Shown here: positions 11,015-53,429 of the stretch, one piece after another
How the letters are laid out: each line of letters opens with the position of its first letter
Position numbering within the stretch: the first letter of the stretch is position 1
Source: Octopus sinensis
Taxonomy: Eukaryota
DNA: 64,000 nt
NCBI RefSeq assembly: GCF_006345805.1
Contig: NC_043008.1
Coordinates: 57,474,001-57,538,000 of the forward strand
Direction: 5' to 3'
Notes under the pieces: generated by a model
Database searches by the model: none
What the model saw: only the letters and a program-made list of their open reading frames with translations
What the model was told of the DNA's origin: nothing
Made by a program: the position numbers and the translations under genes

Positions 11015-13931
11015 TACATGTAAGTTCTCTAGACATCCTAGTGTTTGAGGCTATACTCATGAAGTAATGTAGGTATTTGATAGGGAGAACTCACGTATTC
11101 CTAATAATGAAGTTATCAGTAATCACGTAAGCAGCAAAAAAGACCAAGCCCGAAATAAAAGTAGAATTAAATTAACGGTAAACGCTAATCTAGAGTACAG
11201 GCCCAACAATCCAAATAGAAGCATTGACCAGAACATAGGTAATTCGGATAAGATTGAAGTAGATAAACCTAAGATGCACACAAATAAAAAAAAATAATGG
11301 TAATAAATAATAACTAACTCCGGTGAGATGAATAGTAATATTCTACGAACCCTAAATTTTATAAAAAAGATATATTATGGCTGAATATTCCTTTCAACTG
11401 TGCGATACAATCGGATTACAGAACAAATTCAAAGTGATTCTGGAAAAAAATTTCCCTATCTCTCATAGATATCATAGAATTATTTCTAGGAAAACAGTTA
11501 GGATTTCTTATTCAACCCTCCCAAATATGTCCACTTTAATAGCTAAAATTAATAATAACAACATTAAGCTAGCCAGGAAAGATAGAAATAAAAATAATAA
11601 TATCAGAATGAATACCAATAGCAATAACAATAATACTACCAACAATAAAAACAGCAATAGGAACTATCAAAACATAGGTGAAATTAGTAACCACAGAATG
11701 ACTAATAACATTAACATTAATAGTAATAATAACAATGCCGATATTAATAGAAGTAATATTGTTAATAATAGAATAGAAATAATATAAATAAGCTAATGGA
11801 GAAAATAAGGAGAATGAAAATATCAGTGATATCTATAACAATAATATGCAGTTGGATAAAAAGACTAACAATAATAATAACATTACGAATAATATAAGAA
11901 ATCTTGGTAGGACTTTACACCTAAATGATGAATCAGAAGGATCAATAAATAATAACAATACTTTAGATATCAGCACCAACTATAGAAATGATAATCAAAA
12001 TAATAGGAACCTTAAACATCTACCCAGGAATAATCCAAGGCCTGAAGTTGTTCCTCCTGTGTGTAAGTGTAGAATAAAATCAAAATGCCCGCACCTGGTC
12101 TATGTAGGGAAAATAATGTAATCTATAAATGTACCATATCCACGGAGAATAACAAATATTTTTACATTGGCTGTACAATTAATTTTTAGCCAGAGTTAGA
12201 AATCACATCTCGACTTTTAAATTACGTCATAAAGCTGGTACCACCACACTTTCAAACAAAATCTGGGAACTCAAAAATAATAATAAAAATTATACCCTTA
12301 ATTGGGAAATAGTTAGGAGAGCAATTCCGTATAAAAATAGTAGGGTTGGTTGTCAACTATGCTCCATGGAGACGTACGAATTCTAAAGCATAGTAAACAT
12401 AGAAACTTATTGAATAACCATATCGAATTAGGTCAAGTTTGTGTCCACGCTAAATTGAAGACTTTAAAATATTTTAAATGATTGGAATATCATAACTAGA
12501 TAGATAGATATAACTTGATTTCTACTAGTATAGCACTGCTTTAAGTAGATAACTAAGAGTTCTCACATTACAGTTATCTTTATCTTTTTCCTTATATCTG
12601 CATCAGTTTTTTGAGAACAGGGAAATGAATAGTACTTATTCGCTACTTAATTGAGGCTTTATTTAATTTCAAACTCACAATTTTTAAATTCTTAATTTTA
12701 AATCTTAATTGTAATATTTATTTTAATTCCTACTTAATCTAATTTAAATAGCATAACTCTAATAAATTATAATTAGTTACTGTAGCCACATAATTCTATT
12801 TCATAATTAAATAAATAAGGCTATTCCCTCGGTGATATATGATTGTCTTCATTATGATAGACAATCCCCTAACACCTTGTAAATAATCTTATAAGATTTG
12901 ACCTGTAGTCAGTCAATGTATGAATAATAACGACAACTCCTTAAGACAATAAAATGAATAAATGAAATAAGTAATTTTTTAATGACTTTTTGATAAGATT
13001 ATACTTAGATTTTCCTAATGTATTTTCTGGCGATTTTAGCATCTGACCCCTTAACCCCTGACTATGTTATCTCTTTAGATTCTCTTTAAACTCATAGCTG
13101 ATTTCAACAGCAATAAATTAACGGTTTACTGGTCAAAGAATATTTTCTCCTCTAGTTCCTAGATGCCTGTTGATTAAAACCAGACTTACAGTCTACTAAC
13201 TCTTCTGTATAACTAGAACCCTCTTTTTTCTTTTCCTTTTTTTCCCTTCTTTCCCTATTTCTTTCTCTTTTCTCTTTTTTCTTTTTCTTTTTTTTCTTCT
13301 TCTTATTCTCTGTTTCCTTTTCTCTTCTCTTTTAGTCCCCCTTCCCGCCCCCCCTTTTTGCTCCCTCCTCCATTATTTTCTCTCTTTTCTTCTATTCCCT
13401 TCTCTATTCTTGGCCGATCTAGTAAGCCCTTCAGCCTTTAAGAGTTAAATAGCTACAGCCTCTTGTGAATAGCAGTAATGTGATTAATGTGGCAAATACC
13501 TAATCATATGACAAGGATTGATACCTACCTCATTGTGTTCAACTATGTAAAAATTTATCGCCTGTGAATATGAAATTCATCTCCATTTCTCTGGAAATTT
13601 ACATCTACACCATTAGAATCTGTGCATATATACAAAGGATTAATTCACCCTCTCTGTAATGCTAATAAGCAGGAATTAAGACCCACCTCGTTGTAATTAA
13701 CAATGGATAAATTTGTCTTCTGTGAGTATATAATCCCTCATCATATCTATGGAAATTCATATGGATTAGGTCACCTTCTCTGTGATGCTATCAAAACTTT
13801 TTTAAAATTCTGTGATAAGACTGTACATCATCTTTAAAGAACTTTAATGAACTTTAGAAATCTGTTTAAATACCTACATTACTTCATGAGTATAGCCTCA
13901 AACACTAGGATGTCTAGAGAACTTACATGTA

Positions 13932-14022: not shown

Positions 14023-14224
14023 ACCTATCCATTCTTGTTGCTTCTTTCTCGCTTATAATCACCCCACATTACTGTATTGTTAAATCAGTATAGTTTTTTT
14101 TGGTGCATCTAAGTTAGGTACCATATTCAAGTAAATTTTTTAAATTAACTTGAATCTTTATTGCTCTTTGAATATATTCCCATACAGTCTGTATGTTTTT
14201 CTGGTACTTAATTTCTCAACAAGA

Positions 14225-17058
14225 ATGGAAAAAGTAAACATTGAGTTCTCCCCTAAAGACATCCCCTTACATAGTATAGATGAATATAATTGGCTTCTCA
14301 TTCATAGGATTAACGATTTCATTAGAAGAATCAGGTGGAAAACGTACCATTTTGATGTCAAACAGAAGAAGAAACCTCAGGAAATGAATACCGAAAAGAA
14401 TTTTAGAAGAATTTTTAAAAGTAGAAAAAGCCCACCTCAGAACCCATTCCTGGAGAACTTTGAGAAAGACTTGCTGAATCTTATAGATGATATTAGCTTC
14501 AATGAACACCCGTTAAGGTATAACCCTCACCTTAGACACCTTAGGAACTTTATTCAGTCAACCCGGTGCAAACATGGAATCCTAGTACCAGCAGATAAAA
14601 CGGGTAATATGTATAGAGTTGATTACGATATTTATAGCAAATTAATTAGGAAAGAACTAAACTCCAAATATAAAATTACAACTAAGAACAATTTGAAAAA
14701 AGTAAACATGGAAATGAAAGAGATCATGGAGAAACTAAATTTAACAGATAGAACGGAGCCACTTATACCCTGCGAGCCCAGGATCAACCTTAAAGACCAC
14801 AAAAAGGACTTCTTGAATAACCCGTCGGTAAGGCTGATCTGTCCAACTAAGTCGGACATTGGCCGACTTAGTAAATCCATCCTGGATACTGTTCTACCCC
14901 AAATAACCCCTCTTCTCCCCTTAAACCTATGGCTAAGTACCGACGAAGTTCTAAAATGGTTTAACTCTCTAACTAATACTAGTAGTCTGTCCTTTATTCA
15001 GTTCGATATTAATAGTTATTACTCTAGCATTTCCCCTATCTTACTCAACAAATCACTAATATTTGCCATGAATCGCTCCCTCATAACTAGAGAAGAACAA
15101 TATTGTGCTACTAGCTAGGAAGACATTTATTGAATTTGAAGATAATTATGGACTAGAGCAGATACACCAAATTTTTTTGATATACCAATGGGTTCCAGTG
15201 ATTCGGCTGAGGTAACCAACCTAGTAGGCGCATATCTATTAAAATGCATAAGCAAGGATATCCCAGAAATACAGGGGGGTCTATATAGGGATGATGCTCT
15301 GTTGTTATCCCTAGTAATAATAAATCTGTTATAGAAAGGATTAGAAAGAAAATTAATAAGTTCTTTAAGGACTTCAACCTCAGTATAACGTATGAACCAG
15401 GCACTAAAATAGCTAATTTCCTAGATATTACCCTAGACCTTAACTCCAAGCTACATACACCCATTTAGAAAGGAAGGCGAAGTCACGAATTACGTAAATA
15501 ATTATCAAATCATCCCCCAAATATAATAGAATCTTTAGTAAGAAATATTTCATTAAGAATTTCAAAATTATCATCCAATAAGGATATATTAACTCCCATT
15601 CTGAGCATTATAATGCGGCGTTAACTAAGGCTGGATACAACCAAAAGATTACATTCGTTGATAGGGAGAACTCACGTATTCCTAATAATGAAGTTATCAG
15701 TAATCACGTAAGCAGCAAAAAAGACCAAGCCCGAAATAAAAGTAGAATTAATTAACGGTAAACGCTAATCTAGAGTACAGGCCCAACAATCCAAATAGAA
15801 GCATTGACCAGAAATAGGTAACTCGGATAAGATTGAAGTAGATAAACCTAAGATGCACACAAATAAAAATAAAAATAATGGTAATAAATACAATAACTCC
15901 GGTGAGATGAATAGTAATAATTCTACGAACCCTAAATTTTATAAAAAAGATATATTATGGCTGAATATTCCTTTCAACTGTGCGATACAATCGGATATAC
16001 AGAACAAATTCAAAGTGATTCTGGAAAAAAATTTCCCTATCTCTCATAGATATCATAGAATTATTTCTAGGAAAACAGTTAGGATTTCTTATTCAACCCT
16101 CCCAATATGTCCACTTTAATAGCTAAAATTAATAATAACAACATTAAGCTAGCCAGGAAAGATAGAAATAAAATAATAATATCAGAATGAATACCAATAG
16201 CAATAACAATAATACTACCAACAATAAAAACAGCAATAGGAACTATCAAAACATAGGTGAAATTAGTAACCACAGAATGACTAATAACATTAACATTAAT
16301 AGTAATAATAACAATGCCGATATTAATAGAAGTAATATTGTTAATAATAGAAATAATAGAAATAAGGCTAATGGAGAAAATAAGGAGAATGAAAATATCA
16401 GTGATATCTATAACAATAATATGCAGTTGGATAAAAAGACTAACAATAATAATAACATTACGAATAATATAAGAAATCTTGGTAGGACTTTACACCTAAA
16501 TGATGAATCAGAAGGATCAATAAATAATAACAATACTTTAGATATCAGCACCAACTATAGAAATGATAATCAAAATAATAGGAACCTTAAACATCTACCC
16601 AGGAATAATCCAAGGCCTGAAGTTGTTCCTCCTGTGTGTAAGTGTAGAATAAAATCAAAATGCCCGGCACCTGGTCTATGTAGGGAAAATAATGTAATCT
16701 ATAAATGTACCATATCCACGGAGAATAACAAATATTTTTACATTGGCTGTACAATTAATTTTTTAGCCAGAGTTAGAAATCACATCTCGACTTTTAAATT
16801 ATGTCATAAAGCTGGTACCACCACACTTTCAAACAAAATCTGGGAACTCAAAAATAATAATAAAAATTATACCCTTAATTGGGAAATAGTTAGGAGAGCA
16901 ATTCCGTATAAAAATAGTAGGTTGGTTGTCAACTATGCTCCATGGAGACGTACGAAATTCTAAAGCATAGTAAACATAGAAACTTATTGAATAACCATAT
17001 CGAATTAGGTCAAGTTTGTGTCCACGCTAAATTGAAGACTTTAAAATATTTTAAATGA
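14225..17058 (+). pseudogene. PLE polyprotein: RT, Asn-rich linker, C-terminal GIY-YIG endonuclease; broken by several 1-bp indels
   Basis: FIRRIRWK, PADKT, QFDINSYYSSI, PMGSSDSAE, GLYRDD (15277-15294), SNHPP, CKCR..CP..GLC, NVIYKC...YIG, CQLC. Confidence 0.9.
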
Positions 17059-19374: not shown

Positions 19375-21199
19375 TTCACTTTTATCACCAGTTAAGGAAA
19401 ATCAAAGGAGGCGACTGCTTCCTCTGCCTCAGCCTGGCTACTGCCCTACCAGGTTAAAGACATCATCTCCTGTTGCTCTTTCCTTTAATTCACAACAAAA
19501 GAGAAACTGACTTATGATTTTACCACTTCTAATGATTCGCAAAAAGGAAATTAGTTGCTTTGTTTCTGATGTCTGTACTTTCATTGATATGTAAGCCCAC
19601 AAGTTTTTGAGTTCATTTTTTTTGCTTCAGTGAAATGTTTGCAGAGTTGATCATCAATATCTTGCAAAATGTCTTAAATTTTACAAGAAATCGTCTCGGC
19701 AGATAAAAGAATGGTCTTAATTTGTTTGACTAATCATTGTGCCAGCTGTGATATCCAAGGCTGGTAAATAATGTTTTCGGCATCAGAAAGATTTTTGTTT
19801 CTTTTTGCCAAATGCTGGTCAATCTTGTAACTAGCTGAGTGAAATTTCTTCAGCCTTTTTTGATTGGATTTTAAAATTATTTTTTACCATCTCAAAGTAT
19901 TATTTTGGTTTGTCTTCATGTTGTGGATGATTTGTTACTAAATGACGCTGAAGTTTCCTGGGAATCATTGCTTCTGTTAAACAAATCATACAAAAAGGAA
20001 ATGGGTTGTCTTTTTCCTGATATTTCATTTCATTTCATTTGAGTTTGAGTCCATGCTCAGGCCAAGTCGAAGACTCCACCCTCAGAGTCTGGTGTGGTTG
20101 CCAGGTTGTATTCTGTTTAATTTTGACATGTGTAGGAGCGAGTTTGAGTCAGTTTGTGCTTGTTGTGTATATCCTGGTGCTTAAGTATCTATCCAGCTGC
20201 AATTTGAATGATTCGAATGATTCCACACTGCATTCTGATAGATTTCTGACATGTACCGGAATGGAGTTGAATAGTTGTGCTCCTCGAACCAACAGACTTG
20301 ACTCTCGCAGGGTTTTTGCTGCCTGGCCAGCCTTTTTGTTGATTGGTGGTAGCTGGCAGTGTCGTCTGTGGCGCAGTGAGTGGTAGGTTTTGATACCAAA
20401 GTTTGGCACCTTTTGCTCTATCATTTTCCAAATGTATATAATTCAGTATCGCTCAAATCTTCTTTCTATTTGAGTACATCTTCAAGGTTTTGAGTCTTTG
20501 CCAATAGTCCAGGTCCCTCGTTTCTGAGAAGTATGAGGTAAAATTTCTTTGGAGTGATTCCATCTTAGATAGTTGGCCCTTTGTTGTTGGTGACCTATTG
20601 GATTTAATTTTTATATTTTCATTTTGATGAGGTGGACTTTTTATTTTGGTGTCCATCTTGTTTGCTATGACTCTCTTCCTCGGTTTTCTGAGGTCACAAT
20701 AAAAATCTGTCCATGTTTAGATCTAAAACTAAAAATCGATTAAAATTAACATAAAATAATTTATGTTAATTATAAATAAATCAAAAATTAAAAACTTCTA
20801 GGACTACTACACATCATGGATTCATCAATTTCCATGATGTGCCCAACCCCACCAATTTGGTACGGGTTATTGACAAGATTGTGACTAGTATTGAAACCAC
20901 TGAATAACAGTAGATTTGGCCAATCCAGTCAATTCTATTGATGATGATATTGGTAAGTTATTACTCCAAGAATATATTACATGTATGAAGTCATGTACTT
21001 ACAGACAATCCAAGTTCAAATGCAGAAAAGTAATATATTATAGCAAAACTGCTGTTCGTCGTGGAAATTAATTTATATTTATCATATTTTATGAATTATA
21101 TAATTAATTTATATTTACGCTCAAACTTTGTATCGAGCAAAGTTGTTTCCTGAAAATACCAAAAATATTTTCCGTGGCACACAGTTTGCAGATACCGGG
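19375..21199 (-). mobile_element. hAT transposon (Charlie/ZBED5-SCAND3-like), 5' part, interrupted by a CR1 LINE
   Basis: MDRFL start near 20715; PFCMIC..EAMIPRKLQRHLVTNHP...KP..YF; NESTDIRNKA. TIR-like ccggtatctgcaaactgtgtgccacgg on minus near 21199. Confidence 0.75.
20025..20600 (-). mobile_element. CR1/L2-group LINE 3' fragment with (AATGA)n-type tail
   Basis: MESLQRNFT...LDYWQRLKTLKMYS, IIYIWKMIE, RGAQLFNSIPVHVRN..FKLQLDRYLS. Confidence 0.8.
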
Positions 21200-21720
21200 T
21201 TACAGAGAAAAAGCAACAAGCAAATTTCATATCTGCACATTTTCTGATTTTCATTCAAATCATGTGGTGCCCTTTGTTGAGCTTTTTCGATTTTCCAATT
21301 GCATGCAAATGGTTGCAGGGAGTTTTCTGACTAATTTGAAGTTCTTTTGACAGTGTCTCGAATGGCTTTATGTGGATCTTTCTCGACGACAGTCTTTAAT
21401 TGACTATCATCAATGACAGATGGGTGTCCACTATGCTTATGAACTTCAAGGCTCAGGTCTCCACTGCAAAATTGTTTAAACCATTTTCAAGCTGACCACT
21501 CACTGATCATTTCCTTACCAAACGTTTCTTCATTGATACTGAGAGCAGTTTCAGTTGCTTTACATCCTTTTTTGAAGTTGAATAGCAAAATTGATTGAAT
21601 ATCGCACATTGACAGTTCCATTTCAGATGATTGTAACCTGCAGCAGTGTGAATTTATTTATTTATTAATGCATTTGGGCAAGTCTATGTTTGTATTATCA
21701 GACAATTGCCAAAAAAAAAA
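21200..21720 (-). mobile_element. mariner transposase 5' remnant
   Basis: WFKQFCSGDLSLE..HSGHPS (mariner HTH WF..F..G...L....SGRP). Confidence 0.65.
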
Positions 21721-22258
21721 AGTTTAAAAAATTCAAAACTGCAAAAATCTGGTACAAATTTTTTTTATGGTTCAAAGCGTTGCTTACTTTTTACTCTACT
21801 TGATATCTTCTATCTTTGAGGCATATTGGGAGGTGCTTTTATGAGGCAGGGCAGATTCAGACAGATTATTATGTGGAAAGGATGCACTAAATAGAAATAA
21901 TTTTGCATGTATTGTATATTTCCAGTTGACATTTCGTAACAACTTAGAGAGAGAAATGCCTGACAGTCCAATATGTCAAACATTTCAGACATTTACGTTT
22001 AGTATGTTCCACATAAAGTCATGAACTTTAGAAGAAGTGACCGACTGACTTATTAGGCCGATCGATCACTTCCTTTTTTTTGCATTGCTCTTTTTTTTTT
22101 TTTTAATATTTATTAATAAAGATTTGACATAAATGTTAAAAGCATCTTTAAGATATTACAAATTATGTAATAAAGAATAGAAATATCAATTTTTATATTA
22201 TCTCGAGGATGTTACAAAGTATATAATGAAAGATAAAATGAAAAAGTAATATGAAAAT

Positions 22259-23100
22259 TATTCATTCAATGGTTCTGGTGATGGAGCTGCTCTATTTGAA
22301 TTCATCATTTTGCGGTATTTGCACCATTTTGGTGTTTCTCCTCATCCTTGTTCGTTGCCGGAATCTGAGGAGTTGTCGAGCTTGATAGTGTCCCCACTTC
22401 GATCAGGAGACGGAGTCCGAAGTCTGTCTCGTCTTTGTCTACTTTGTTCTCGCAGTATTTCATACTCTTCTACAATATTAACAAGATTATCATCGCTTGA
22501 CGATTCATCGTCATTGAGTTCACGAAAACAAAGTTCATAAAATAGGATATTCCAAATAAAAGGATTTATTTTTTTCTTAACGTATCTTAGGAATGGAGAT
22601 GCACAGTTGAATGTATATTCAGTATATCTTGTTATAAATGCAATTTTTTCTGCTAATGGTGCATTTTGGTCAAATTTGTTATTAGAGGTTATAATTAACG
22701 GAGTTCTATGTACAACTTGGTCTTGTTTGAATTTTACTGATACCTCTGTGTCAGTTCCCTCTGCTAATTTTTTGAATGTTTGCAACGTTTCAAGAGTGAA
22801 GTTGGGTTCTTCAATGAGTCCGATTTCAATGTTTGAGATTTTGGAATGGAAAACTACTGGTGCCTTTTATGGTGCTGACATGTGTGAACATGTCGGCTAT
22901 GCTTCTTGCAATCATAGTCTTACCCGTATTAGGTAAGCCTCTTAGAACTAAGAGGTTTCTTTTAGGTTTTTTTCTTGTTTAAAAGTTCCCAAACATTTTC
23001 AACGAATAAAGGTTCTGAGATATCTTGCGTCGTTAAAATTGATTTGAATTTGTAATATTACTTTAACGATGTGCTTGTCTGGTTCTACCGACTCTCGTTA
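22259..23100 (-). pseudogene. NS1: Endogenous parvovirus element: NS1 SF3 helicase, C-terminal half
   Basis: Minus strand reads KPKRNLLVLR-GLPNTGKT (Walker A, 22916-22939)-MIARSI...SSFPFQNL / NIEIGLIEEP (Walker B)...FKKLAEG...VSVKFK...RTPLIITSN (motif C). About two frameshifts and one probable premature TGA at 22342. Confidence 0.9.
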
Positions 23101-23500
23101 TTTCATAATTACATAAACCCTGTGGCCATTTGCATAAGTTTGTTTTGGCAGAATTACTTATAGTAGCGTTATCTGTACCCCAGGCCATCCATCCCATTGT
23201 TTGTGGACTACCAGATATATATTCTATCTATTCTATATACATATTCAATCTATTTCTGAGTGATATGTTATTGTTACCATAAATGAAATTTTTGCAGGTT
23301 GATTTTGTGAATCTAAAATTGGTATGGCATCTAAAGTAGCTATTGGTGGAGGATTTGAAGGATTTATAGGAAATTGTGTTAAATGTGATCTTCCAGTATT
23401 TTCTTCTTCGTCTGTTTTATCTACTGCTAGATCTTTACTCCATGAACCGTCTTTAGTAGGTGCCCACTGACTTTTTTTAGCACCGAAATAAGTGTTTATT
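23100..23500 (-). pseudogene. Probable parvoviral capsid (VP) C-terminal fragment
   Basis: PPPIATLDAIPILDSQNQPAKISFMVTITYHSEI resembles the terminal jelly-roll strands of denso/hamaparvovirus VPs. Adjacent to NS1, similar composition, no TE motif. Confidence 0.55.
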
Positions 23501-23503
23501 TCG

Positions 23504-24552
23504 CAGATGGAGGTTGTTATCAATACTTCTACCCAGCATGGCACATGTTTGTGCCTTGTTGACTAGTTTCTCGATGACAAGCGCCAACCTCTCAGCTAAC
23601 ACCTTGGCCAAAGTTTTCAAATCTGCGTTGAGCAGAGTGATGGGCCTGAAATTATCTATGATGTCCCCCTTATTTGGGTCTTTTTTAATCAGTGCCACTG
23701 CACCTCGCCTTACAAAAGCAGGGATACTCCCGTTTTGCTGCCAGTTACAGTAGACAGCTGCCAAGATGCCTCCAAACAAGTCTGGCATATGACAATAAAG
23801 TTCGTAGGGCAGACCATCCAAGCCTGGTGACTTGTCTGTCGCGCAGCCTGCCATCGCATCCTGTACATCCGCAGCTGTGATAGGCGTTTCACAAGACTCC
23901 GCCTCTCTTGCTGAGAGTCGTGGCAAGGCATGCAGGTAGGCACTAAAGTCCACTCTGCGTTCCGACCCACCACTTGTCCCAAACAGTTGGGTGAAGTGTT
24001 GTTGAAAAGCCTCACACATCCTTTTAGGCTCGAGCAATTCGCGCCCCTGTTCATCTGTAAGAGACTTGATGGTGGCTCTGTTGCCTCATTGCGTCTCCAC
24101 CACTCGGGCTTCTCGGGCAGCTCCAATTCCTTCGTTCCTCAGAGCACGCATCCTTCATGTTTGGTGTTGAGGTGTTGGTCGAGGGCCAACCTCGCTGCCA
24201 GTACGTTGGACACGATGCCAGTTCGAAGTGCCTCTTCTAAATTCTTAACTAAGTCTCCCTCTATTCTATTTCGGTCTAATGTTAGGGCCTTACTGTACCT
24301 GACTGATTCTACTTTAATTGCTTTTTTTAGAGCATACCACCATCTGTTGTTGATGATGGTACCTGTCCAAGCTCTCTTAACTAATGTGCTGGTCTGATCC
24401 TTGTAAGCCTGTCGTGCTGTAAAAGACGCGTTCAGCTTCCAGTAACCAGGACCCATATGCAAATATTTGGAGAAAACAAAATATTTGATATTAAAACAGG
24501 GCTGAAAATGCCCCTAGGGGCAAAATCCCCCAGGTAAAAAACACACCCAGCT
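23504..24552 (-). mobile_element. Tx1-clade LINE fragment: 5' UTR joined to internal ORF2, truncated in RT
   Basis: GPGYWKLN, KSPGLDGLPYELY, NFRPITLLNADLK, QTCAMLGRSIDNNL. UTR 24500-24550 matches 4648-4696. Confidence 0.9.
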
Positions 24553-24559
24553 TAATTAG

Positions 24560-25017
24560 GATAGTCAACAGAGAAGCTTTGTGGACCGTGTTGAAAACAT
24601 AGGTCGGGTCTGTGAACATGGAGTGTAAATCCATTCATTGTTCAAAGCACTTCTCCTTGACTTTGACACACAGCAAACACTATATCTATGGTGCTGTGGC
24701 CAGGGCAGAAGCCACACTGGTCTTTAGGTGAGTTGTTCTCAGAGACGCCAGTTATAATCCTGCTCAAGAGGATGTGAGCCAGGATTTTTCCAGCAATGGA
24801 AAGCCGGGAAATGTCCCTGTAATTTCTGCAGTCTGGTTTGGCTCCATTGTTCTTGTAGAGCATAACTATGGTGGCATCTCGGGAAGTCTGCTGCTGAACG
24901 CTCTTCCTCCCAAATGGACACAAGGATGTTGTGGAATGCTTTGTAAGCTGTGGTACCAAGTGTTCTGTACAATTCTGCAAGGAGTCCATCTGCTCCCGGA
25001 GCTTTACTACTGTTCAT
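24560..25017 (-). mobile_element. RTE-clade LINE RT fragment
   Basis: KAPGADGL, DATIVMLYKNNG..DCRNYRDIS.LSIAGKILA, QCGFCPGHSTIDIVF. Confidence 0.85.
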
Positions 25018-25689
25018 GTTTTTTATGGTAGTCTTGACCCCCAGCAGCTGGTCAAGAAGTCAGACATGGTCAACAGTAATGGAAATCTTGAGCAAAATGA
25101 AATTACGAATCCAATCAACAACCAAGAGACTTATATATTATTTGGTGATCTCTACCAATTCTTCAGAGATAGTTTTGGATTGCTGAATAGTATTTACAAC
25201 TTCGTTCTTAGATTTTGCTTCTCAAGCACTAGTTTTAGTTTTTCAGAAATAAAGTGCTTTGAGGATCTGTGTTGGATATAAAGCTTTTGTTGTGTTAAGC
25301 AGAAGGCCACTACTTCATTTCTTGAATTATGTGTGATATTGGTCCATTGACTAGTGCCAACCCTGTAAAATGCTCTTTCCAGGGTGTATTTCATAAGGTT
25401 TAAATTACTTCTTTGAAGACCTTCAACAAAGCTTGATGTGAAGGAGTGTCGCCTGCATTCTGATTGTTCATATTGGGTACTCTTGTACTGATGAGGGCCA
25501 CAGCATCAAGTTGATGGCTGAAAGTAATGTAAACATGACAGACATTGGCATAATAATCACACTGAATATACACTCATTTTCAATGCATATGAAGTGAGCA
25601 TATGAAACTGAATGTATGTACAAGGCTTTAGAAAAGCCCTGTTACACTCATTACAATGCACACAAGGATAGTTTTAATTGATGTTGCCA

Positions 25690-27288: not shown

Positions 27289-28305
27289 CTAGCAGCATAG
27301 CCCGGCGTTGCCCGGGTATGTAAGAAACTTTGTCGATAAGCAATGCCCTTTACCTTTTTACTCTTTTTTGTACTCATTGTACCGTTATTTTGTAAAATGA
27401 AGCCTAAAAGGCATTCAGGGCATTGTTCCTTTGCATGCATGAAGAAAATTTATGACAGTCAAAGTGCATTTTCTGGTTTTGTTTAGCACACCCAACGCAG
27501 TTCGGACCACAGCTAAGCCCTACCTAATCCTAACTTAAGTCTAGCGAAAGGGGGCTCGGGAGCCTCTAGTAGGCAACGACTAATCCCGATCTAGTCCTTT
27601 CCCTCTAGGGAATGAAGGCGCATGTGTAGGTTGCAACGTCTTCTCTTCACTCCAATACTTCTGTGTATACGACATTCCTAGCTTTGGGTGAAAACATGAA
27701 AACATCATTGCGCCTCCCAACGCGTGAACAGCCCTCATAGAGTTGACCGTGGGCGAAGCACTGTTTGCCCAAATGTAACCCAGCGACTTGTAGTGTTTCG
27801 CCTTGGGATTTATTGATGGACTTTGCGAAGCAGAGTTTAACAGGAGACTGAGAATGTCTGAAGTCGATTGGTAGGTCAGCGCCCAACGGTTGAAGGTGCA
27901 TGCGTGGAATGAAGACGTCCTCTCCCTTCCCACAACCGGTAAGTATTGTGGCTGTTATTAAATGTGGTACCAAATGTTTCACAACCAGACGTGTGCCATT
28001 ACACTGTTTAGGTGGAACCAAATTCCTGATGAGCATAATGGGCGGCATCCTATTTTCACCGAGCGATAAAAGGTCCCTGGAGAATGCAGCGGATCCGCTG
28101 TCACCAATCAATTGCGTGCATGTTAGTTTGGAGGTGCAAGGGCTGCACATGTGCCCAAAGAGCTGATGACTTAAGGCGCACGGCATCGGCACGGGTTCCT
28201 TTAGGAATAACAGGTCTGCCTGAAGTCTCCTGAAAGAAGTAAAGTCAATCCTCCCATGGGGGCCGTAGAGTCTCTGATGTCTTGCAGGGACCTGTCCAGT
28301 GCCTC
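27289..28305 (-). mobile_element. Helitron 3' end with internally deleted Pif1-type helicase
   Basis: 3' hairpin cccgggcaacgccggg followed by CTAG|T at 27289-27292. Protein IMLIRNL..CNGTRL, INKSQGETL, HGQLY..CSRV. Confidence 0.92.
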
Positions 28306-28379
28306 ACATCTTAATTTAGCTAACTAATAAAATCGAGGAAAGAGTGAGAGAAAGTTGTGGTGAAAGAGTCAGCAGAAGT

Positions 28380-28456
28380 TCGCCCGGTCTGAGATTCGAA
28401 CTCACGATCCCTCGACCGCGAGTCCGCTGCTTTAACCACTAGGCCATGTGCCTCCA
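28380..28456 (-). mobile_element. tRNA-like SINE head (further copies at 29962-30038 and 33743-33819)
   Basis: A box TGGCCTAGTGG and B box GAGTTCGAATC on the minus strand. Confidence 0.75.
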
Positions 28457-28457
28457 C

Positions 28458-28790
28458 TGTTGGTGAGAGTGGAAAATCCTAATTTGCATAAAGGTGATGT
28501 TGAAAATTACTGTAAAATGGTGAAAGCTTTTTTGGATATTGACAGGTATTCTTCTCTGATTCCCTATATTTAATCTTCAATCCACCATCGGTGGATATAG
28601 CAGCTAGTTCTTCTTTGGTTAATGTTAAACTAGCATCGTATGAAATTTTTATGAATGGATTTTGAATCCAGTATATTGTTTAGTGTTATATCGGCAGATT
28701 ACGATAATTTATCTTCCAAATTTGTCAAACGTTCGAGTATTAAAAGAGAAGATACCATTTATGCAAGTTCTACTTATCAAAGGAAACCTT
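28458..28790 (-). mobile_element. hAT transposase C-terminal (dimerisation domain) fragment, triplicated
   Basis: EYLSISKKAFTIL..FSTSPLCKLGFSTL matches the hAT FSTSYLCExGFS motif. Confidence 0.7.
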
Positions 28791-30717
28791 TGCAAATTTT
28801 CCTCAGAAGCTCTTACAGTAGTTTTTTTTCTTCACACTATTCCACGGATTCTTCACTGATTGTTGGCTTCCTAACTTTTCCTGTTGGTGTTCGGTTGGAG
28901 TCCCCCCCCCCCTGCATCAACTTGCTCCATTCATTTCTCATTAGTTACTTGAATGCTTTGTTGATACCAACATCCACAGGTTGGATTTGGCTTGTCAGGC
29001 CACCAGGAATAACTGCCAATTGGGTTTCTAACTTTTTTTGTCCCATCAGTTATATGTACCCTAAACTGATCTAACACTGGACTGGCATAGATGGCTTCTT
29101 AAAAAGGTTCCCAGGTCTCTTTCTCCAAAGCTTCATACCATCTTGATCCATCCAGCCCTTTGCATGAACATGCACAAGAACTCCTTCTGGCAGCTTCTCT
29201 GTTGGAAGTGTATTCTTTTTGAAAATGAGCATGTGTGGCAACTGGGTACCATCAGCACAGCATGCCAGGACAGCTGTGCGAGTCTTTCCATGCCCTCCTG
29301 TCTTGATGGCCCCTTTTTGATTCACAGTTTTGTTGGAAGGAGCATCAAAGTTAAGTGGAACTTCGTCCATATTTGCTATGTGGCAAAGTTCAAAGTTGGT
29401 ATTCTTGTGTAAATTAATGATATAAGAACGAAGCTTAATCATTTCTTCATAAGCATCAGGCATCTTCTGAGCAAGCTTGATTCTAGTCCTTAGACTGTTA
29501 TTAAATGTGGTACCAAATGTTTCACAACCAGACGTGTGCCATTACACTGTTTAGGTGGAACCAAATTCCTGATGAGCATAATGGGTGGCATCCTATTTTC
29601 ACCGAGCGATAAAAGGTCCCTGGAGAATGCAGCGGATCCGCTGTCACCAATCAATTGCGCGCATGTTAGTTTGGAGGTGCAAGGGCCACACATGTGCCCA
29701 AAGAGCTGACGACTTAAGGCGCACGGCATCGGCACGGGTTCCTTTAGGAATAACAGGTCTGCCTGAAGTCTCCCGAAAGAAGTAAAGTCAATCCTCCCAA
29801 GGGGGCCGTAGAGTCTCTGATGTCTTGCAGGGACCTGTCCAGTGCCTCAAGGGCGCTTTGTGTGCCATAGTGCACTCGTCCCATACTCTCACATCTTAAT
29901 TTAGCTAACTAATAAAATCGAAGAAAGAGTGAGAGAAAGTTGTGGTGAAAGAGTCAGAAGTTCGCCCGGTCTGAGATTCGAACTCACGATCCCTCGACCG
30001 CGAGTCCGCTGCTTTAACCACTAGGCCATGTGCCTCCACTGTTGGTGAGAGTGGAAAATCCTAATTTGCATAAAGGTGATGTTGAAAATTACTGTAAAAT
30101 GGTGAAAGCTTTTTTGGATATTGACAGGTATTCTTCTCTGATTCCCTATATTTAATCTTCAATCCACCATCGGTGGATATAGCAGCTAGTTCTTCTTTGG
30201 TTAATGTTAAACTAGCATCGTATGAAATTTTTATGAATGGACTTTGAATCCAGTATATTGTTTAGTGTTATATCGGCAGATTACGATAATTTATCTTCCA
30301 AATTTGTCAAACGTTCGAGTATTAAAAGAGAAGATACCATTTATGCAAGTTCTACTTATCAAAGGAAACCTTTGCAAATTTTCCTCAGAAGCTCTTACAG
30401 TAGTTTTTTTTCTTCACACTATTCCACGGATTCTTCACTGATTGTTGACTTCCTAACTTTTCCTGTTGGTGTTCGGTTGGAGTCCCCCCCCCCCCCCCGC
30501 ATCAACTTGCTCCATTCATTTCTCATTAGTTACTTGAATGCTTTGTTGATACCAACATCCACAGGTTGGATTTGGCTTGTCAGGCCACCAGGAATAACTG
30601 CCAATTGGGTTTCTAACTTTTTTTGTCCCAACAGTTATATGTACCCTAAACTGATCTAACACTGGACTGGCATAGATGGCTTCTTAAAAAGGTTCCCCAG
30701 GTCTCTTTCTCCAAAGC

Positions 30718-32908
30718 CAAAAGGAGTAGTAATTGCTGTTTTAGGAATATCGTCTGAGTTGACCGGTATTTGACGGTAGGCACGTATCAGGTCAACTTTA
30801 GAAAAAATAGTACAGCCATGTAAATTTGCCGAAAAATCGTTTAAAATCCTTATGGGATATTTGTCTGGAATCGTCACCGAATTTAGACGCCGATAATCTC
30901 CCACCGGGCGAAAATCTGTATGCCCTGTTCTTACTAAATGAAGGAGGTCCAGTTGTTGTTATAAAGTGTCGTGTCGAATGCAATGGCTTAGCCACCCTAA
31001 AGGTAACATCATATAGCTCTGGAAAAGAAGCTAAAAGAGAGTGAAAAACATCTCCAGATGTACCGACAAAAAATGTCGGGCTAAGAGCTAAATTGGTAGA
31101 TTCTCCGGTCGGCGTGGAGAGTGTAGTCGAACTATCGACCAACCTCCGACGTCTGACATCTACCAACAAATCAAATTTATCCAGAAAATCCGCACCTAAA
31201 ATAGGATGTGGAATGTCGGCAATGACAAAAACCCATTGAAAGTCTCGTCGAAGACCAATATCAAGGCGCAACGAGATCTGACCGAATGTGGCTATTGGTG
31301 ACGAGTCAATAGCGTGCAAGATGATGTTAGATCGCTTTGGCCTGTCGGTTGTGCAACGCAGAGGCCAAATACTGCAACAAGAACCAGTGTCCACCATGAA
31401 GTTTTTCTTCGACACTAGATCTTTAACAAAGAATGCACGATAACCAGAAAATGTTGTGGAGGAAGTTGACGTGCTCAAATTCTCCGAATCTAGTTTAAAG
31501 ACTTATAAGTGCATGGCTGTGTGCATCTATGTGCATTCTCTCCATACTTGGAGTGGTACCAACACAGTCCAGACTTAGACTGTTTTGATCTCGAGGATGA
31601 ACGACTGCGACTTCGCGATTTTGAAGATCGCGACACATCGCGTCCATCCTTTTAGTGAGGGTTTCTATTAGTTTAGAAAGCCCCTCAATTGAGGCCGAAG
31701 AAGTTTGTGAACAGGCACAAACAGACCGTGACGATGGTTGAACGGCAAATTCAACCATCTTATCAGCCATCGTTGCTATTTGGTCCACTGTATTTGTCTC
31801 TACTGCTGCTCGGTAGTAATACTTTGTGCACGAAATTGTGCCTCTAACTGTGAAAACCACAGTGTGACATCACCTATAAAAGTAGGTAACGAACCCATAA
31901 ACATTTTGTAGCCTTTTATTCACTAGATGACTCTGTCAAATGGAAAAAAAGAAAATTGACAACGAACCAACGCTGAACAGACGCAACAAGGAAAAACAAA
32001 GGGAAAAAAGAAAGGAAGAAAGAAAGAAAGACCAACAATTGAACCAATAAATTTTGAATGTGCAATTTACAAAAAAAAATGGGTTTTTTGGTTTTTTTTT
32101 TGTTTGTACTGTGTGCACAGAGAATAGAAAAAAAATTCTTTTCTCTTTTTTGTTTTTTTACCAACCTTCGTCGCGTTTTAATCGAGAAAAAAATTTCTTC
32201 TCTTTTTTTTTTTTTTTTCTTCCGTGCGTGAGTGCAGATGAAGAAACAAACTGTTGAAAGGGACTGGAAAACAGGTTGGTCGTGTTTCAGACTTGGCAGA
32301 AAAACTGGATTTTTTTCTTTTTGTTGAGTGTTCTCTGGAACTTCGGGGTCACCACTGTAAGGAATATGTGAATATCTCCTCTTGCACTTTGGGGGTGCAA
32401 GTTGGTGCAATCACTTTCCTTGCTTTTATATCCAGACTCTACCAGTCAAAGAAACACAAAACGCAGACGTAAAAAATAGATATACTTTATTGTTTTATAC
32501 CGGTGAGAAATCAGTGGTACATCTGATGTCCTTGGTTCTGGGCGCGCAAGGCTGAAAGTTAATCGATTGTAATATTTACAATGTTCAGCCGCTAAAAACA
32601 GAACGGGTCAAAAATGGCGTCCGGAGGAAGAAGATGATTTGACTGCAACAATTCAGGTTAAAAGTCTTCGGCCAAAAGACTGCTGCTATCAACCGGAGAG
32701 AGAGCGAATTAAACGTCTGCTTCTATGAAATGCCTGCCGCTGTCTGTCGGACGCTAATGGTCAACGCTTTACGCTCCCTTGCCTCTTTGTTAAGGCTCAC
32801 GCTCCCTTGCCTCTATAAGCTAAGGCCACGTCAGCAAAATTCCCTCTTTCGGACTTCGTGTATTCGCGAGAGGGCGTTGCGCGCGCGCTGTTGTATAGGA
32901 TCACTACA
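30718..32908 (-). mobile_element. Ty3/Gypsy LTR retrotransposon, 5' part: LTR, PBS, deleted gag, protease, start of RT
   Basis: LTR TGTA...TACA 32908-32356; PBS TGGTGACCCCGA (32354-32343, tRNA-Trp type); FMVDTGS protease; DYRRLN, FSKVDLIRAY, KTAITTPFG. Confidence 0.92.
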
Positions 32909-34274
32909 GCTTCATACCATCTCGATCCATCCAGCCCTTTGCATGAACATGCACAAGAACTCCTTCTGGCAGCTTCTCCGTTGGAAGTGTCTTCTTTTTG
33001 AAAATGAGCATGAGTGACAACTGGGTACCATCAGCACAGCATGCCAGGACAGCTGTGTGAGTCTTTCCATGCCCTCCTGTCTTGATGGCCCCTTTTTGAT
33101 TCAGTTTTGTTGGAAGGAGCATCAAAGTTAAGTGGAACTTCATCCATATTTGCTATGTGGCAAAGTTCAAAGTTGGTATTCTTGTGTAAATTAATGATAT
33201 AAGAACGAAGCTTAATCATTTCTTCATAAGCATCAGGCATCTTCTGAGCAAGCTTGATTCTAGTCCTTAGACTGTTATTAAATGTGGTACCAAATGTTTC
33301 ACAACCAGACGTGTGCCATTACACTGTTTAGGTGGAACCAAATTCCTGATGAGCATAATGGGTGGCATCCTATTTTCACCGAGCGATAAAAGGTCCCTGG
33401 AGAATGCAGCGGATCCGCTGTCACCAATCAATTGCGCGCATGTTAGTTTGGAGGTGCAAGGGCCACACATGTGCCCAAACAGCTGACGACTTAATGCGCA
33501 CGGCATCGGCATGGGTTCCTTTAGGAATAACAGGTCTGCCTGAAGTTTCCTGAAAGAAGTAAAGTCAATCCTCCCAAGGGGGCCGTAGAGTCTCTGATGT
33601 CTTGCAGGGACCTGTCCAGTGCCTCAAGGGCGCCTTTGTGTGCCATAGTGCACTCGTCCCATACTCTCACATCTTAATTTAGCTAACTAATAAAATCGAA
33701 GAAAGAGTGAGAGAAAGTTGTGGTGAAAGAGTCAGCAGAAGTTCGCCCGGTCTGAGATTCGAACTCACGATCCCTCAACCGCGAGTCCGCTGCTTTAACC
33801 ACTAGGCCATGTGCCTCCACTGTTGGTGAGAGTGGAAAATCCTAATTTGCATAAAGGTGATGTTGAAAATTACTGTAAAATGGTGAAAGCTTTTTTGGAT
33901 ATTGACAGGTATTCTTCTCTGATTCCCTATATTTAATCTGCAATCCACCATCGGTGGATATAGCAGCTAGTTCTTCTTTGGTTAATGTTAAACTAGCATC
34001 GTATGAAATATTTATGAATGGATTTTGAATCCAGTATATTGTTTAGTGTTATATCGGCAGATTACGATAATTTATCTTCCAAATTTGTCAAACGTTCAAG
34101 TATTACAGAGAAGATACCATTTATGCAAGTTCTACTTATCAAAGGAAACCTTTGCAAATTTTCCTCAGAAGCTCTTACAGTAGTTTTTTTCTTCACACTA
34201 TTCCACGGATTCTTCACTGATTGTTGGCTTCCTAACTTTTCCTGTTGGTGTTCGGTTGGAGTCCCCCCCCCCCT

Positions 34275-35270
34275 GCATCAACTTGCTCCATTCATTTCTC
34301 ATTAGTTACTTGAATGCTTTGTTGATACCAATATCCACAGGTTGGATTTGGCTTGTCAGGCCACCAGGAATAACTGCCAATTGGGTTTCTAACTTTTTTT
34401 GTCCCATCAGTTATATGTACCCTAAACTGATCTAACACTGGACTGGCATAGATGGCTTCTTAAAAAGGTTCCCAGGTCTCTTTCTCCAAAGCTTCATACC
34501 ATCTTGATCCATCCAGCCCTTTGCATGAACATGCACAAGAACTCCTTCTGGCAGCTTCTCCGTTGGAAGTGTCTTCTTTTTGAAAATGAGCATGTGTGGC
34601 AACTGGGTACCATCAGCACAGCATGCCAGGACAGCTGTGCGAGTCTTTTCATGCCCTCTTGTCTTGATGGCCCCTTTTTGATTCACAGTTCTGTTGGAAG
34701 GAGCATCAAAGTTAAGTGGAACTTCGTCCATATTTGCTGTGTGGCAAAGTTCAAAGTTGGTATTCTTGTGTAAATTAATGATATAAGAACGAAGCTTAAT
34801 CATTTCTTCATAAGCATCAGGCATCTTCTGAGCAAGCTTGATTCTAGTCCTTAGACTAAAACCATTTCTCTTCATAATACAGAAGCAGCAGATGGGCATG
34901 TCTTCAAAAGCAGTTGTCTCGTCTGTCTCTTGTCCTTCCTCATCTCCTGAGCAATCCTTCTTCCTTGATTGATGAGGATCTTTGTCAAAACAAATGCACC
35001 AGTTTGCTTTTGGCTTTCAACCCAGTGCTTGAGTTTTTCTTCCAGATTTTGCCACCTTGCCTTTTTGCCTTGTGCTGCTCTCTTCATCCTTGGTATCTGT
35101 ACAAGTTCATCTTTGTGCTTTCTCCACAGTCCAGTCATGGCAGCCGTAGGAGGAGGAGGAGGCCCAAACTGTCTTGCTGCAGCTTTATTTCCATTCTCTT
35201 CTGCAAAGTGAATCATTTTCAGTTTGAAATTTGCTGGATATGTTATGCGCTTTTTATTCTTGGACATTTT
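34275..35270 (-). mobile_element. pogo-family (POGK/Passer-like) transposase, frameshifted; DDE part also present in the duplicated units
   Basis: Brinker-like YPANFKLKMIHFAEENGNKAAARQF; CENP-B HTH WQNLEEKLKHWV; ANMDEVPLNFD; KGWMD. Confidence 0.88.
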
Positions 35271-44500: not shown

Positions 44501-44919
44501 TATGGAAAACAACTAAAGTTCGGAAAAATTAAATGAAAAGTTTTTTAAAAGAATATTTGCATAGTATTTAAATACAAGGGGCATTTTCCTTGTTTTTGCC
44601 TGTCTCTGTCCCTCTTTTTGACTCTTGTGTGAATTCTTGGCAGAGAAGAAAAAGAAAAATACTTTTGAATGCATCATTTTTAATATTTGCTTGTGTGTTA
44701 TTCTAAGGTCATGGTGGATATGTCATTTGTTGTAGATGCGTTCAATAGGGGGGGGGTCTGTATTTTGTGATAAAGAACAACTCTTTACTAATTCGTTGGC
44801 AACAGGTTGTATCATCCCTGAATTGATAGAGGGGGAAAAATACTGAAACTTGGATTTTTGTTTTTGGCACAAATGTTGATGTGTTGGCTGAATGCTATTT
44901 TTCTGTTTTTCGGAATTTT

Positions 44920-45905
44920 GATTAGTACGTCATGTAGTTTCACGAATGTCCTGTCCGAGAATAGTGACGTCGAGTAGTATTTTGACTTCAGATATCTTTC
45001 AATACTGGATAACATTCCCCTCAAAGATGAAGGTTCATAGTTGCTACCGTCCGGCTTTCGTAACGAGATAAAGAAAGTACAGAGAATGTCACAAAGTTCA
45101 CTTTTGTCGATAGATTCAATTGGACGCGTGTCGCCATTTTTCGCCATGAAAACAAACAATCGTTTAACATCATAGTTTGTTTTCCGAAGAGTGTTTTTAT
45201 TTTGATTACCTTGAACGAATTTGTCTATTCCAGAATGATCATACCTTGGTTGAAATTCAAGTTCATTATTGCTCTCATCAAAGAAATCGTCACATAGAAG
45301 TTCGTTGTACACCTCATCAGGGATGTTAGATCTAGGGTTCGATGACAATCCACTCGTCGATGACACTGTTTCAGGTACCTTTGTTAACCTGTATCCAGCA
45401 ACATGTCGAACTTGGCCAGTATTGATCTTCACTTTGAACATTCTGTATGTTCCAAGAGGTTGAACAACGGATAACACTCTTCCCCCATCTTTACTATCAA
45501 TCTTATCAAAATCATTCACCTTGATATCGACAACAGTAGCCATCTTGTTGATAGATCTACCTGCACTGCAAGAGTATCGACGAGCAGACGAAATATGTTG
45601 TGATTTTTTTGGCAACAAAAAATTGAATTACCACCAGAAATGTTAATATTTTATGTGTATATGACTTTAAGTGATATCTGGTATAAAAAAGATAGTATGT
45701 TTGTTTAATTACATGGCTACATTCTACCTGCTCATGAAAGTAATGAATGAAGTTTAGTTGTAACTTATGAATGACAAAAGTAGTGCCGTCACCATGACCT
45801 CGGGTCATCACCATGGATTGACCAATCAGAAGCAGCGCTCGCAGTATCTGACATATGTTAGATACCAAAAATACCTCAGTGTTCTCACTCACATGTGTGT
45901 AATAA
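44920..45905 (-). mobile_element. Crypton (tyrosine-recombinase DNA transposon) 5' fragment
   Basis: NKNTLRKT..DVKRL..F, ELCDILCTFFISLRKPDGSNYEPSSL....SSIERYL is the Crypton / KCTD1-QRICH1-ZMYM-related signature. Confidence 0.85.
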
Positions 45906-53400: not shown

Positions 53401-53429
53401 CTAAATTAAGTATGGGGGAGATTAGGGTT

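What the first reader, a model, noticed from the sequence alone, without database searches (positions are those of the whole stretch)
22259..23500. Endogenous parvovirus/densovirus element largely missed by the ORF track
Seen: joining frames gives a full SF3 helicase: Walker A GLPNTGKT, SSFPFQ, Walker B IGLIEEP, B' FKKLAEG, motif C TPLIITSN. An acidic C-tail follows, and a capsid-like piece is adjacent. Established: this motif order is that of Parvoviridae NS1. Inference: a fossil of a probably unsampled mollusc-infecting parvovirus, oriented like the TEs and so a potential source of antiviral piRNAs.
Basis: partly seen in the sequence, partly recalled or inferred. Interest (0 to 1): 0.8.

Follow-up and report, generated by a model that had tools for sequence, protein, structure and literature searches.

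The report
Parvovirus fossil with capsid gene first
A broken piece of a parvovirus-like genome really is integrated here among transposon debris; such fossils are common and were already reported from an octopus, but this virus lineage appears to carry its capsid gene in front of its replication gene, the reverse of the usual parvovirus layout.

Summary
Real, integrated, and parvovirus-like. The minus strand holds the 3' half of an NS1 SF3 helicase (23048-22258; two frame breaks, one stop). It is 72-85% identical to an intact unnamed 547-aa NS1 (P0001) and 81-87% to an Octopus bimaculoides element already listed in 2016. Contigs from four studies and three species labels bridge both junctions, and the copies differ by up to 1.4%. 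So the lineage is unclassified but not unsampled. The unexpected feature is the order: LINE fragment, capsid end (23502-23096), internal deletion, NS1, then an AT-rich tail, an A-run and hairpins. A distant relative (P0006) also reads capsid end directly before the NS1 start, in a shifted frame (0 of 500 shuffles), which suggests capsid-before-NS1 is native (about 0.65). That rests on one relative's protein, not DNA, and the capsid identity is indirect. Transposon fragments are strongly minus-biased (17 versus 2 Pfam hits), which fits a one-strand piRNA-cluster-like region. No small-RNA data could be tested, and antiviral function is speculative. Interest is moderate.

The parts
23504..24522 (-). 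LINE fragment (end of endonuclease to start of RT), cut off at the junction with the viral sequence
   Evidence: RVT_1 E 7e-5; 51-59% aa identity to the LINE copy at 58166-59881; very high summed contig depth, ending in the bin that starts at 23479
23245..23502 (-). C-terminal part of a probable capsid (VP) gene
   Evidence: 73% to P0029; weak match to residues 309-362 of the 404-aa L002 ORF (1 of 500 shuffles), which the ESM Atlas places with parvovirus capsids (0.97; TM 0.63); matches the shifted frame of the P0006 extension (0 of 500)
23096..23227 (-). Probable capsid tail, in another frame than the piece above and cut off before its end
   Evidence: Matches the same shifted frame of P0006, collinear with the first piece (z 4.8, 1 of 500); no match to the L002/L003 capsids
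23049..23095 (.). Junction zone of the internal deletion that removes the capsid end and about 280 NS1 codons including the HUH domain
   Evidence: NS1 homology starts at 23048; no part of residues 1-265 of five NS1 relatives is found in the window
22977..23048 (-). NS1 residues 281-304 (numbering of P0001)
   Evidence: 67% identity
22835..22975 (-). NS1 residues 305-351 with Walker A
   Evidence: 40 of 47 identical to P0001, 41 of 47 to P0030; Parvo_NS1 E 1.2e-6
22258..22833 (-). NS1 residues 353-545: Walker B, B', motif C, acidic tail; in-frame stop at 22344-22342; final stop 22260-22258
   Evidence: 72% over 193 aa to P0001; 85 and 86 of 106 core residues identical to P0001 and P0030; stop position
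22074..22257 (-). AT-rich 3' stretch (17% GC over 22107-22258), AATAAA at 22114-22109, A14 at 22104-22091, A8 at 22081-22074
   Evidence: no capsid start is recognisable after the NS1 stop (read from the translations)
21945..22075 (-). Single-copy, hairpin-rich stretch (11-, 6- and 13-bp stems); possible remnant of a viral terminus, not shown
   Evidence: z -3.9, 0 of 200 shuffles (boundaries chosen); 9 of 160 window tiles are as structured; background depth in the 21928-22068 bin
21334..21657 (-). Mariner-like transposase remnant flanking the insert
   Evidence: HTH_48 E 1.3e-4; high summed depth 21223-21786

Best explanation
A dead endogenous viral element: about 1.25 kb (up to 1.55 kb with the 3' stretch) of a parvovirus-like genome in a germ-line region made of transposon fragments. 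Shown: NS1 helicase identity, breaks, integration, and sharing across three species labels. Inferred: the source virus belongs to an unclassified lineage found in octopus (and probably annelids). In that lineage the capsid gene lies directly upstream of NS1 on the same strand, as a flipped linear genome or a circular one. The captured piece is the right-hand part of such a genome with an internal deletion of roughly 0.9 kb. It most likely entered as DNA, by repair-type capture of a defective genome (about 0.55 against LINE-mediated retroposition), and has decayed about neutrally since. It cannot make a working NS1 or capsid. Its only plausible present activity is as a passenger in a one-strand, piRNA-cluster-like transcript antisense to NS1.
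For: NS1. Lineage: 23 rows form one clade, 100/98; the window groups with P0001, P0030 and P0031, 98/97. P0030 is O. bimaculoides A0A0L8GWZ8. Integration: contigs in X1, X3, X5 and X6 (4 studies) cross both junctions. Order: the window reads capsid end, then NS1, then a 17%-GC tail. In P0006 the 176 residues before the NS1 start match the window capsid piece (z 8.5, 0 of 500) and tail (z 4.8, 1 of 500) in one shifted frame, collinearly. That leaves at most about 24 codons before the NS1 start, too little for two termini and a promoter. It is the top score of 864 comparisons. Against an mRNA copy: no target-site duplication; AATAAA only 4 nt from the A-run; hairpins beyond the A-run. Decay: 5 synonymous and 7 non-synonymous of 12 differing codons, 71% non-synonymous expected if neutral.
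Against: The gene order rests on one relative (1 of 48 proteins tested), inferred from a protein by degenerate frame shifting, not read from DNA. P0006 lies on an 89-kb contig and may itself be a rearranged insert. The known capsids L002/L003 do not match the P0006 extension (312 and 207 of 500 shuffles as good). P0029 does not match L002/L003 (198 and 285 of 500). So the capsid identity of the window piece is indirect and weak (1-2 of 500). One of 15 control comparisons reached z 3.3. The AlphaFold model of the capsid alignment failed (pLDDT 28). The hairpin signal is matched by 9 of 160 window tiles. The nearest relatives with DNA (L001-L003, 36-41%) are head-to-head ambisense, not capsid-first. 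The codon count is small and comes from a truncated table.
Confidence: 0.62

Rival explanations
1. The source virus had the ordinary NS1-then-capsid layout. The order seen here comes from a head-to-tail concatemer or a rearranged insert in which a deletion removed the termini between the capsid of one unit and the NS1 of the next.
For: The window's own junction is a deletion, so it alone cannot tell the two apart. Relatives occur in several copies on contigs of the same length, which suggests shared contigs (835,705 nt for P0004, P0007, P0008 and P0015; 168,177 nt for three members). P0015 is visibly rearranged. A review states that all parvoviruses have NS on the left (PMC11357303).
Against: P0006 keeps capsid-like coding to within about 24 codons of an intact NS1 start, so two lineages about 53% identical in the helicase (76 of 143) would need the same rearrangement. 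No capsid start follows the NS1 stop in the window.
Confidence: 0.25
2. The insert is a LINE-made copy of a polyadenylated viral RNA: reverse transcription started at the A-run, copied NS1 and capsid, then switched to the LINE's own RNA. This rival concerns the route of entry and is compatible with capsid-first order.
For: The viral sequence is fused directly to a same-strand LINE RT fragment at 23503. AATAAA and A14 follow the NS1 stop.
Against: No target-site duplication (longest shared word 7 nt, as in shuffles). The signal-to-A-run spacing of 4 nt is too short for a usual cleavage site (usual 10-30 nt, recalled). Single-copy structured sequence continues past the A-run. Another LINE copy breaks at nearly the same RT position without virus.
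Confidence: 0.3
3. The element is kept because it yields antisense piRNAs that defend against a circulating relative.
For: Across all 146 ORFs of 90 aa or more (78 minus, 68 plus), 17 minus and 2 plus hit transposon-type Pfam families. tblastn loci: 19 minus, 5 plus, and all minus between 17 and 52.8 kb. Parvo-like inserts give negative-sense 5'U small RNAs in starfish and anemone (PMC6085071, passages).
Against: No small-RNA or stranded data could be tested. The closest intact relative is only 72-85% identical as protein, so DNA matches are likely too loose for piRNA targeting (inference). In Diaphorina citri, targeting of the densovirus did not require endogenous piRNAs (PMC7527727, abstract). 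piRNA production (about 0.5) is likelier than protection.
Confidence: 0.15
4. Contaminant virus or misassembly, or a non-parvoviral SF3 helicase (papillomavirus E1, Polinton, CRESS).
For: PPV_E1_C also scores on the relatives and is the top family for 2 of the 6 NS1 relatives scanned (P0008, P0050). X1 may be the assembly's own sample.
Against: Junction-bridging contigs come from three further studies and two further species labels. The sequence carries frame breaks and a stop. Parvoviral NS1/Rep ranks first in Pfam for the window pieces, in the PDB and in BFVD.
Confidence: 0.03

Closest known systems
Octopus bimaculoides parvovirus-related sequence A0A0L8GWZ8 / KOF81493 (Francois et al. 2016, PMC5013282 supplement)
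   Same: Same lineage: 41 of 47 and 86 of 106 residues identical to the window pieces; listed as endogenous, next to a transposable element. KOF62817 of that paper matches P0043 by eye and falls in the same clade.
   Different: The tails diverge, and the differences look conservative by eye, so it is probably a separate insertion. No capsid or gene order was given in the rows and passages I saw.
Parvoviridae NS1/Rep (AAV Rep68, B19V NS1; unclassified bird-cloaca 'parvoviridae sp.', Ichthamaparvovirus, IHHNV)
   Same: HUH plus SF3 architecture in the intact relative P0001; probable parvovirus-type capsid.
   Different: Only 13-27% identity in the BFVD matches, so no close classified relative. 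The capsid appears upstream of NS1 on the same strand, against 'NS on the left' (PMC11357303; PMC9896142).
Parvovirus-like contigs with apparently circular genomes (Buck et al. 2024, PMC11071296)
   Same: A circle would also place a capsid end directly before an NS1 start.
   Different: Those are described as over 5 kb and Cah-bearing (passages); kinship to this lineage was not tested.
Densovirus-derived inserts that yield piRNAs (starfish and anemone, PMC6085071; Diaphorina citri, PMC7527727)
   Same: Parvo-like fragment in host DNA, potentially transcribed antisense.
   Different: Small RNAs are shown there and untested here.
Metagenomic ambisense parvo-like genomes L001-L003
   Same: Weakly supported sister group in the SF3 tree (93/85); their capsid weakly matches the window piece.
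   Different: NS1 and capsid are head-to-head on opposite strands.

Membership tests
Parvoviridae | SF3 helicase of the NS1 type (Walker A, B, B', C), the basis of family-wide classification (PMC13426907) | tested here: met
   Motifs located; Parvo_NS1 above cut-off; PDB and BFVD rank parvoviral NS1/Rep first
Parvoviridae | N-terminal HUH endonuclease domain in NS1 | tested here: met
   Met in the intact relative P0001 (HUH-like motif at residue 81; full-length fold matches to Rep68). Deleted from the window copy.
Parvoviridae | Single jelly-roll, T=1 capsid protein | tested here: inconclusive
   Indirect: window piece to L002 ORF 1 of 500; L002 ORF to parvoviral capsids 0.97, TM 0.63. No direct Pfam, PDB or Atlas hit for the piece or P0029; model failed.
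Parvoviridae | Linear ssDNA genome with terminal hairpins | tested here: inconclusive
   Hairpins 3' of the A-run, z -3.9, but 9 of 160 tiles are as structured; no DNA of a clade member could be fetched
Parvoviridae (layout described for all members in PMC11357303; a regularity, not the formal criterion) | NS genes on the left, capsid gene on the right | tested here: not met
   Capsid end precedes NS1 on one strand in the window and, by inference, in P0006. Filed as parvovirus-like; formal membership is probable but not shown.
Densovirinae | NS1 clusters with classified densoviruses; genus-level identity of about 35-40% (threshold recalled) | tested here: inconclusive
   No classified references in the tree; BFVD identities 13-27%; P0030's best hit in 2016 was an iteradensovirus at 32% over 66%
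Densovirinae | PLA2 domain in the capsid N-terminus | not testable with these tools
   The capsid N-terminus is absent from the window and no full-length clade capsid was found
Endogenous viral element | Host flanks joined to the viral sequence in independent samples; decay | tested here: met
   Junction-bridging contigs in 4 of 4 runs laid, from 4 studies; frame breaks and a stop
Uni-strand piRNA cluster | Dense transposon fragments with one orientation | tested here: met
   17 minus versus 2 plus transposon-type Pfam hits among 146 ORFs; 19 versus 5 tblastn loci
Uni-strand piRNA cluster | Long one-strand precursor and 1U-biased 24-31 nt RNAs | not testable with these tools
   Only contigs were available; they show no strand and no small RNAs

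The most novel reading that the evidence does not exclude
The element is a fossil of an undescribed, subfamily-level lineage of parvovirus-like viruses of octopuses and probably annelids, whose genome natively places the capsid gene upstream of NS1 on one strand (flipped linear or circular). NS1 may be expressed by splicing over the capsid gene: P0006 and P0008 share a short conserved stretch just before the common NS1 start that is compatible with a splice acceptor, which is inference only. An intact close relative (P0001) may still circulate.
Probability: 0.55. Interest if true: 0.65.

Novelty: new variant of a known kind. Interest (0 to 1): 0.45.

Why it matters
As an endogenous parvovirus fragment it is ordinary, and the octopus lineage was glimpsed in 2016. 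It matters if the capsid-before-NS1 order is native. That would break a layout described as universal for parvoviruses, require a different transcription map (an internal promoter or splicing across the capsid gene), and define a deep invertebrate lineage of at least 23 unnamed sequences with no classified relative. The shared insertion also gives a minimum age: it predates a split marked by about 1.4% divergence between organisms A and C. It is a ready test locus for whether cephalopod-type piRNA clusters process DNA-virus inserts.

Tried and rejected
No host genome was held, so other copies in this genome could not be searched; one search shows one long contig per position over the insert. 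No RNA holder listed. X6 is only guessed to be RNA; its contigs cover all 30 bins, but contigs give no strand or level, so this is a lead and is not counted as evidence of transcription. Attempts to fetch DNA of clade members failed: viral-contig searches found nothing, and one search gave one 29% match on a 45-kb contig (L004, not pursued). Genome contigs found nothing. Metagenome contigs gave only the distant L001-L003. No full-length clade capsid was found. The PDB had no sequence match for the capsid piece or the L002 capsid. The Atlas gave nothing at 0.9 or above for P0029. The AlphaFold model of the capsid alignment was unusable and was not searched. Rfam gave one chance-level hit in 20500-25500. 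No target-site duplication. Papillomavirus E1, CRESS and Polinton origins were rejected on ranking. Of 27 proteins looked up for names plus 3 repeats of clade members (30 look-ups), 3 carried a name, so the tree has no classified references. The tree used 68 of 143 rows (23 clade rows, 45 hand-picked others; near-duplicates left out) and only one 108-aa single-frame piece of the window. Paper searches for a capsid-first monosense parvovirus and for octopus parvoviruses listed none; the library lacks most subscription journals, and bioRxiv supplements (the Buck et al. maps, not opened) could hold such genomes. Earlier-findings look-ups by sequence, place and words were empty; one search gave loosely related notes.

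Full report
Observation. The two motif-bearing pieces each hit Pfam Parvo_NS1 above its cut-off; papillomavirus E1 is weaker. A search with the 174-aa single-frame piece returned 15 longer relatives among 839 candidates and 162 in the representative library. The best is P0001, an intact unnamed 547-aa protein from Logan. It aligns to the window in three collinear segments, residues 281-304, 305-351 and 353-545, at 67%, 85% and 72% identity, combined E 2e-100, including the acidic tail. The copy has frame breaks at 22977/22975 and 22835/22833 and a stop at 22344-22342. The first 265 residues of five relatives, with the HUH domain, match nowhere in the window.

Is it parvoviral? A model of P0001 (pLDDT 74.5) gives 50 listed BFVD matches: all named rows are parvovirus NS1/Rep proteins except HHV-6 U94, four rows are unnamed, and identities are 13-27%. 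In the PDB, AAV Rep68 comes first and papillomavirus E1 at rank 10. By sequence profile, Rep and NS1 chains score 1e-14 to 1e-13 and E1 1e-11. In an SF3 tree of 68 of 143 rows, 23 rows including the window form one clade (100/98), and the window sits with P0001, P0030 and P0031 (98/97). The tree has no classified references, so no subfamily can be assigned.

Is the lineage known? Partly. P0030 is UniRef A0A0L8GWZ8 from Octopus bimaculoides, 41 of 47 and 86 of 106 residues identical to the window pieces. Francois et al. 2016 (PMC5013282; passages, supplement rows) list this protein as an endogenous parvovirus-related sequence beside a transposable element. Their alignment also shows KOF62817, which matches P0043 by eye, and a Lamellibrachia tubeworm fragment that by eye is close to P0008. 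So the clade probably spans cephalopods and annelids, and it was glimpsed in 2016. An octopus host for the window is inferred from this kinship only.

Is it integrated? Yes. Of 24 runs listed, 18 from 10 studies hold some of the stretch. Four were laid. X1 (organism A) has one contig over 21767-23590 with 1 difference, and X3 (organism B) one over 21731-23590 with 5. X5 (organism C) has two overlapping contigs over 21767-23576 with 26 differences in 1,829 letters (1.4%) and three short indels. X6 (organism C) has two contigs, over 21564-22752 and 22763-23602. Both junctions are bridged in all four runs. X1 may be the assembly's own sample; the other three are other studies. Over the insert the depth equals that of neighbouring unique contigs, while the flanking LINE and mariner-like pieces are thousands of times deeper in the three large runs. 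Of 12 NS1 codons that differ among the listed substitutions, 5 are synonymous and 7 are not, against 71% non-synonymous expected without selection. This is compatible with neutral decay, on small numbers from a truncated table.

Anatomy, read 5' to 3' on the minus strand. A LINE fragment (24522-23504) stops just inside its RT domain. It is fused to a probable capsid piece (23502-23245), followed by a probable capsid tail (23227-23096), then directly by NS1 from about residue 281. After the NS1 stop come 152 nt of 17% GC, AATAAA, A14, A8 and a single-copy stretch with three hairpins. Evidence for capsid is indirect. The piece is 73% identical to the unnamed P0029. It matches the C-terminal part of the 404- and 398-aa ORFs of L002 and L003 (1 and 2 of 500 shuffles), and the Atlas places the L002 ORF with parvovirus capsids by features (0.97) and structure (TM 0.63). 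P0029 itself does not match those ORFs, and direct searches found nothing.

The gene order. A review states that all parvoviruses carry NS on the left and capsid on the right (PMC11357303, passages), and 170 bird-cloaca genomes agree (PMC9896142, passages). Here the capsid end precedes NS1 on one strand, and nothing capsid-like follows NS1. The window alone cannot show that this is native, because its junction is a deletion. P0006, about 53% identical in the helicase and on an 89-kb ENA contig, has 176 extra residues before the NS1 start shared by its relatives. Read in a +1 frame by degenerate scoring, this extension matches the window capsid piece (score 53.6, null 21.9, 0 of 500) and the tail (35.8, null 19.8, 1 of 500), collinearly, ending at residues 104 and 153 (first seen). 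Other frames gave no comparable signal. Of 15 control comparisons one reached z 3.3. The L002/L003 capsids did not match. This was the top of 864 comparisons over 48 proteins and the only clear one. At most about 24 codons separate capsid-like coding from the NS1 start, which leaves no room for two termini and a promoter. I put native capsid-before-NS1 adjacency at about 0.65. A flipped linear genome and a circle both fit; circular parvovirus-like contigs are reported in PMC11071296 (passages). A rearranged concatemer of an ordinary virus remains the main rival. Four searches listed no paper describing such an order, within a library that lacks most subscription journals.

How it got here. Capture of viral DNA carrying an internal deletion is slightly favoured. 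There is no target-site duplication, the poly(A)-like signal is only 4 nt from the A-run, and structured single-copy sequence continues beyond it (z -3.9), although 9 of 160 window tiles are as structured. That parvoviruses make internally deleted defective genomes is recalled knowledge. LINE-mediated copying of a viral RNA with a template switch is the rival, supported by the direct same-strand fusion to an RT fragment.

What it does now. It cannot encode a working NS1 or capsid. The neighbourhood is strand-biased. All 146 ORFs of 90 aa or more were scanned: 17 of 78 minus and 2 of 68 plus ORFs hit transposon-type families (one QRICH1 hit and simple-repeat hits not counted). tblastn with 18 hand-picked window ORFs (14 minus, 4 plus) gave 19 minus and 5 plus loci, all minus between 17 and 52.8 kb. 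This fits a one-strand piRNA-cluster-like region, where a plus-strand transcript would be antisense to NS1. Parvo-like inserts give such small RNAs in starfish and anemone (PMC6085071, passages). In Diaphorina citri, however, targeting of the densovirus did not need endogenous piRNAs (PMC7527727, abstract). Nothing here tests small RNAs. I rate piRNA production about 0.5 and antiviral function about 0.15.

Verdict. It is a real, dead endogenous element of a known kind, from an unclassified lineage already glimpsed in octopus. The probable capsid-first layout makes it a new variant. Family classification rests on SF3 (PMC13426907, passages), which is met; genome form and capsid fold remain unproven. 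Interest 0.45.

Noticed in passing
window 58166-61325 (-) and 23504-24522 (-): A second LINE copy of the same type (ORF1 zinc knuckle, endonuclease, RT start) breaks off within about 20 nt of the same RT position as the LINE fused to the viral insert; chance or a breakage hotspot.
   Followed up: partly
window 27650-29846, 32907-33623, 34435-35016 (-): Near-identical repeated blocks joining a Pif1 helicase fragment and a DDE_1 transposase fragment (89-96% aa identity); local segmental duplication.
   Followed up: no
window 11365-12378, 14144-16960, 52887-56028 (+): All five plus-strand transposon loci are of the RT/GIY-YIG (Penelope-like, label recalled) kind; 11906-12347 duplicates part of 16244-16960.
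   Followed up: no
window 44815-45627 (-): 271-aa open frame with a QRICH1-domain hit above cut-off (E 3.6e-8); possibly a Crypton-type remnant (label recalled).
   Followed up: no
L002:1442-5178, L003:1507-5278, L001:1-4103: Unnamed head-to-head ambisense parvo-like genomes of about 5.8-5.9 kb, with a 690-751 aa NS1, an overlapping 260-286 aa ORF at the NS1 3' end, a capsid of about 400 aa and, in L002, a perfect 29-bp hairpin near the end.
   Followed up: partly
P0004, P0007, P0008, P0015 (contig length 835,705); P0185, P0187, P0190 (168,177): Long, often full-length NS1 genes of the clade occur several times on contigs of the same length in ENA assemblies, probably multi-copy inserts in a host genome; P0015 has the NS1 halves in swapped order.
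   Followed up: no
window 48591-48950 (-): Tandem repeat of about 52 nt whose unit overlaps the start of an RT fragment.
   Followed up: no
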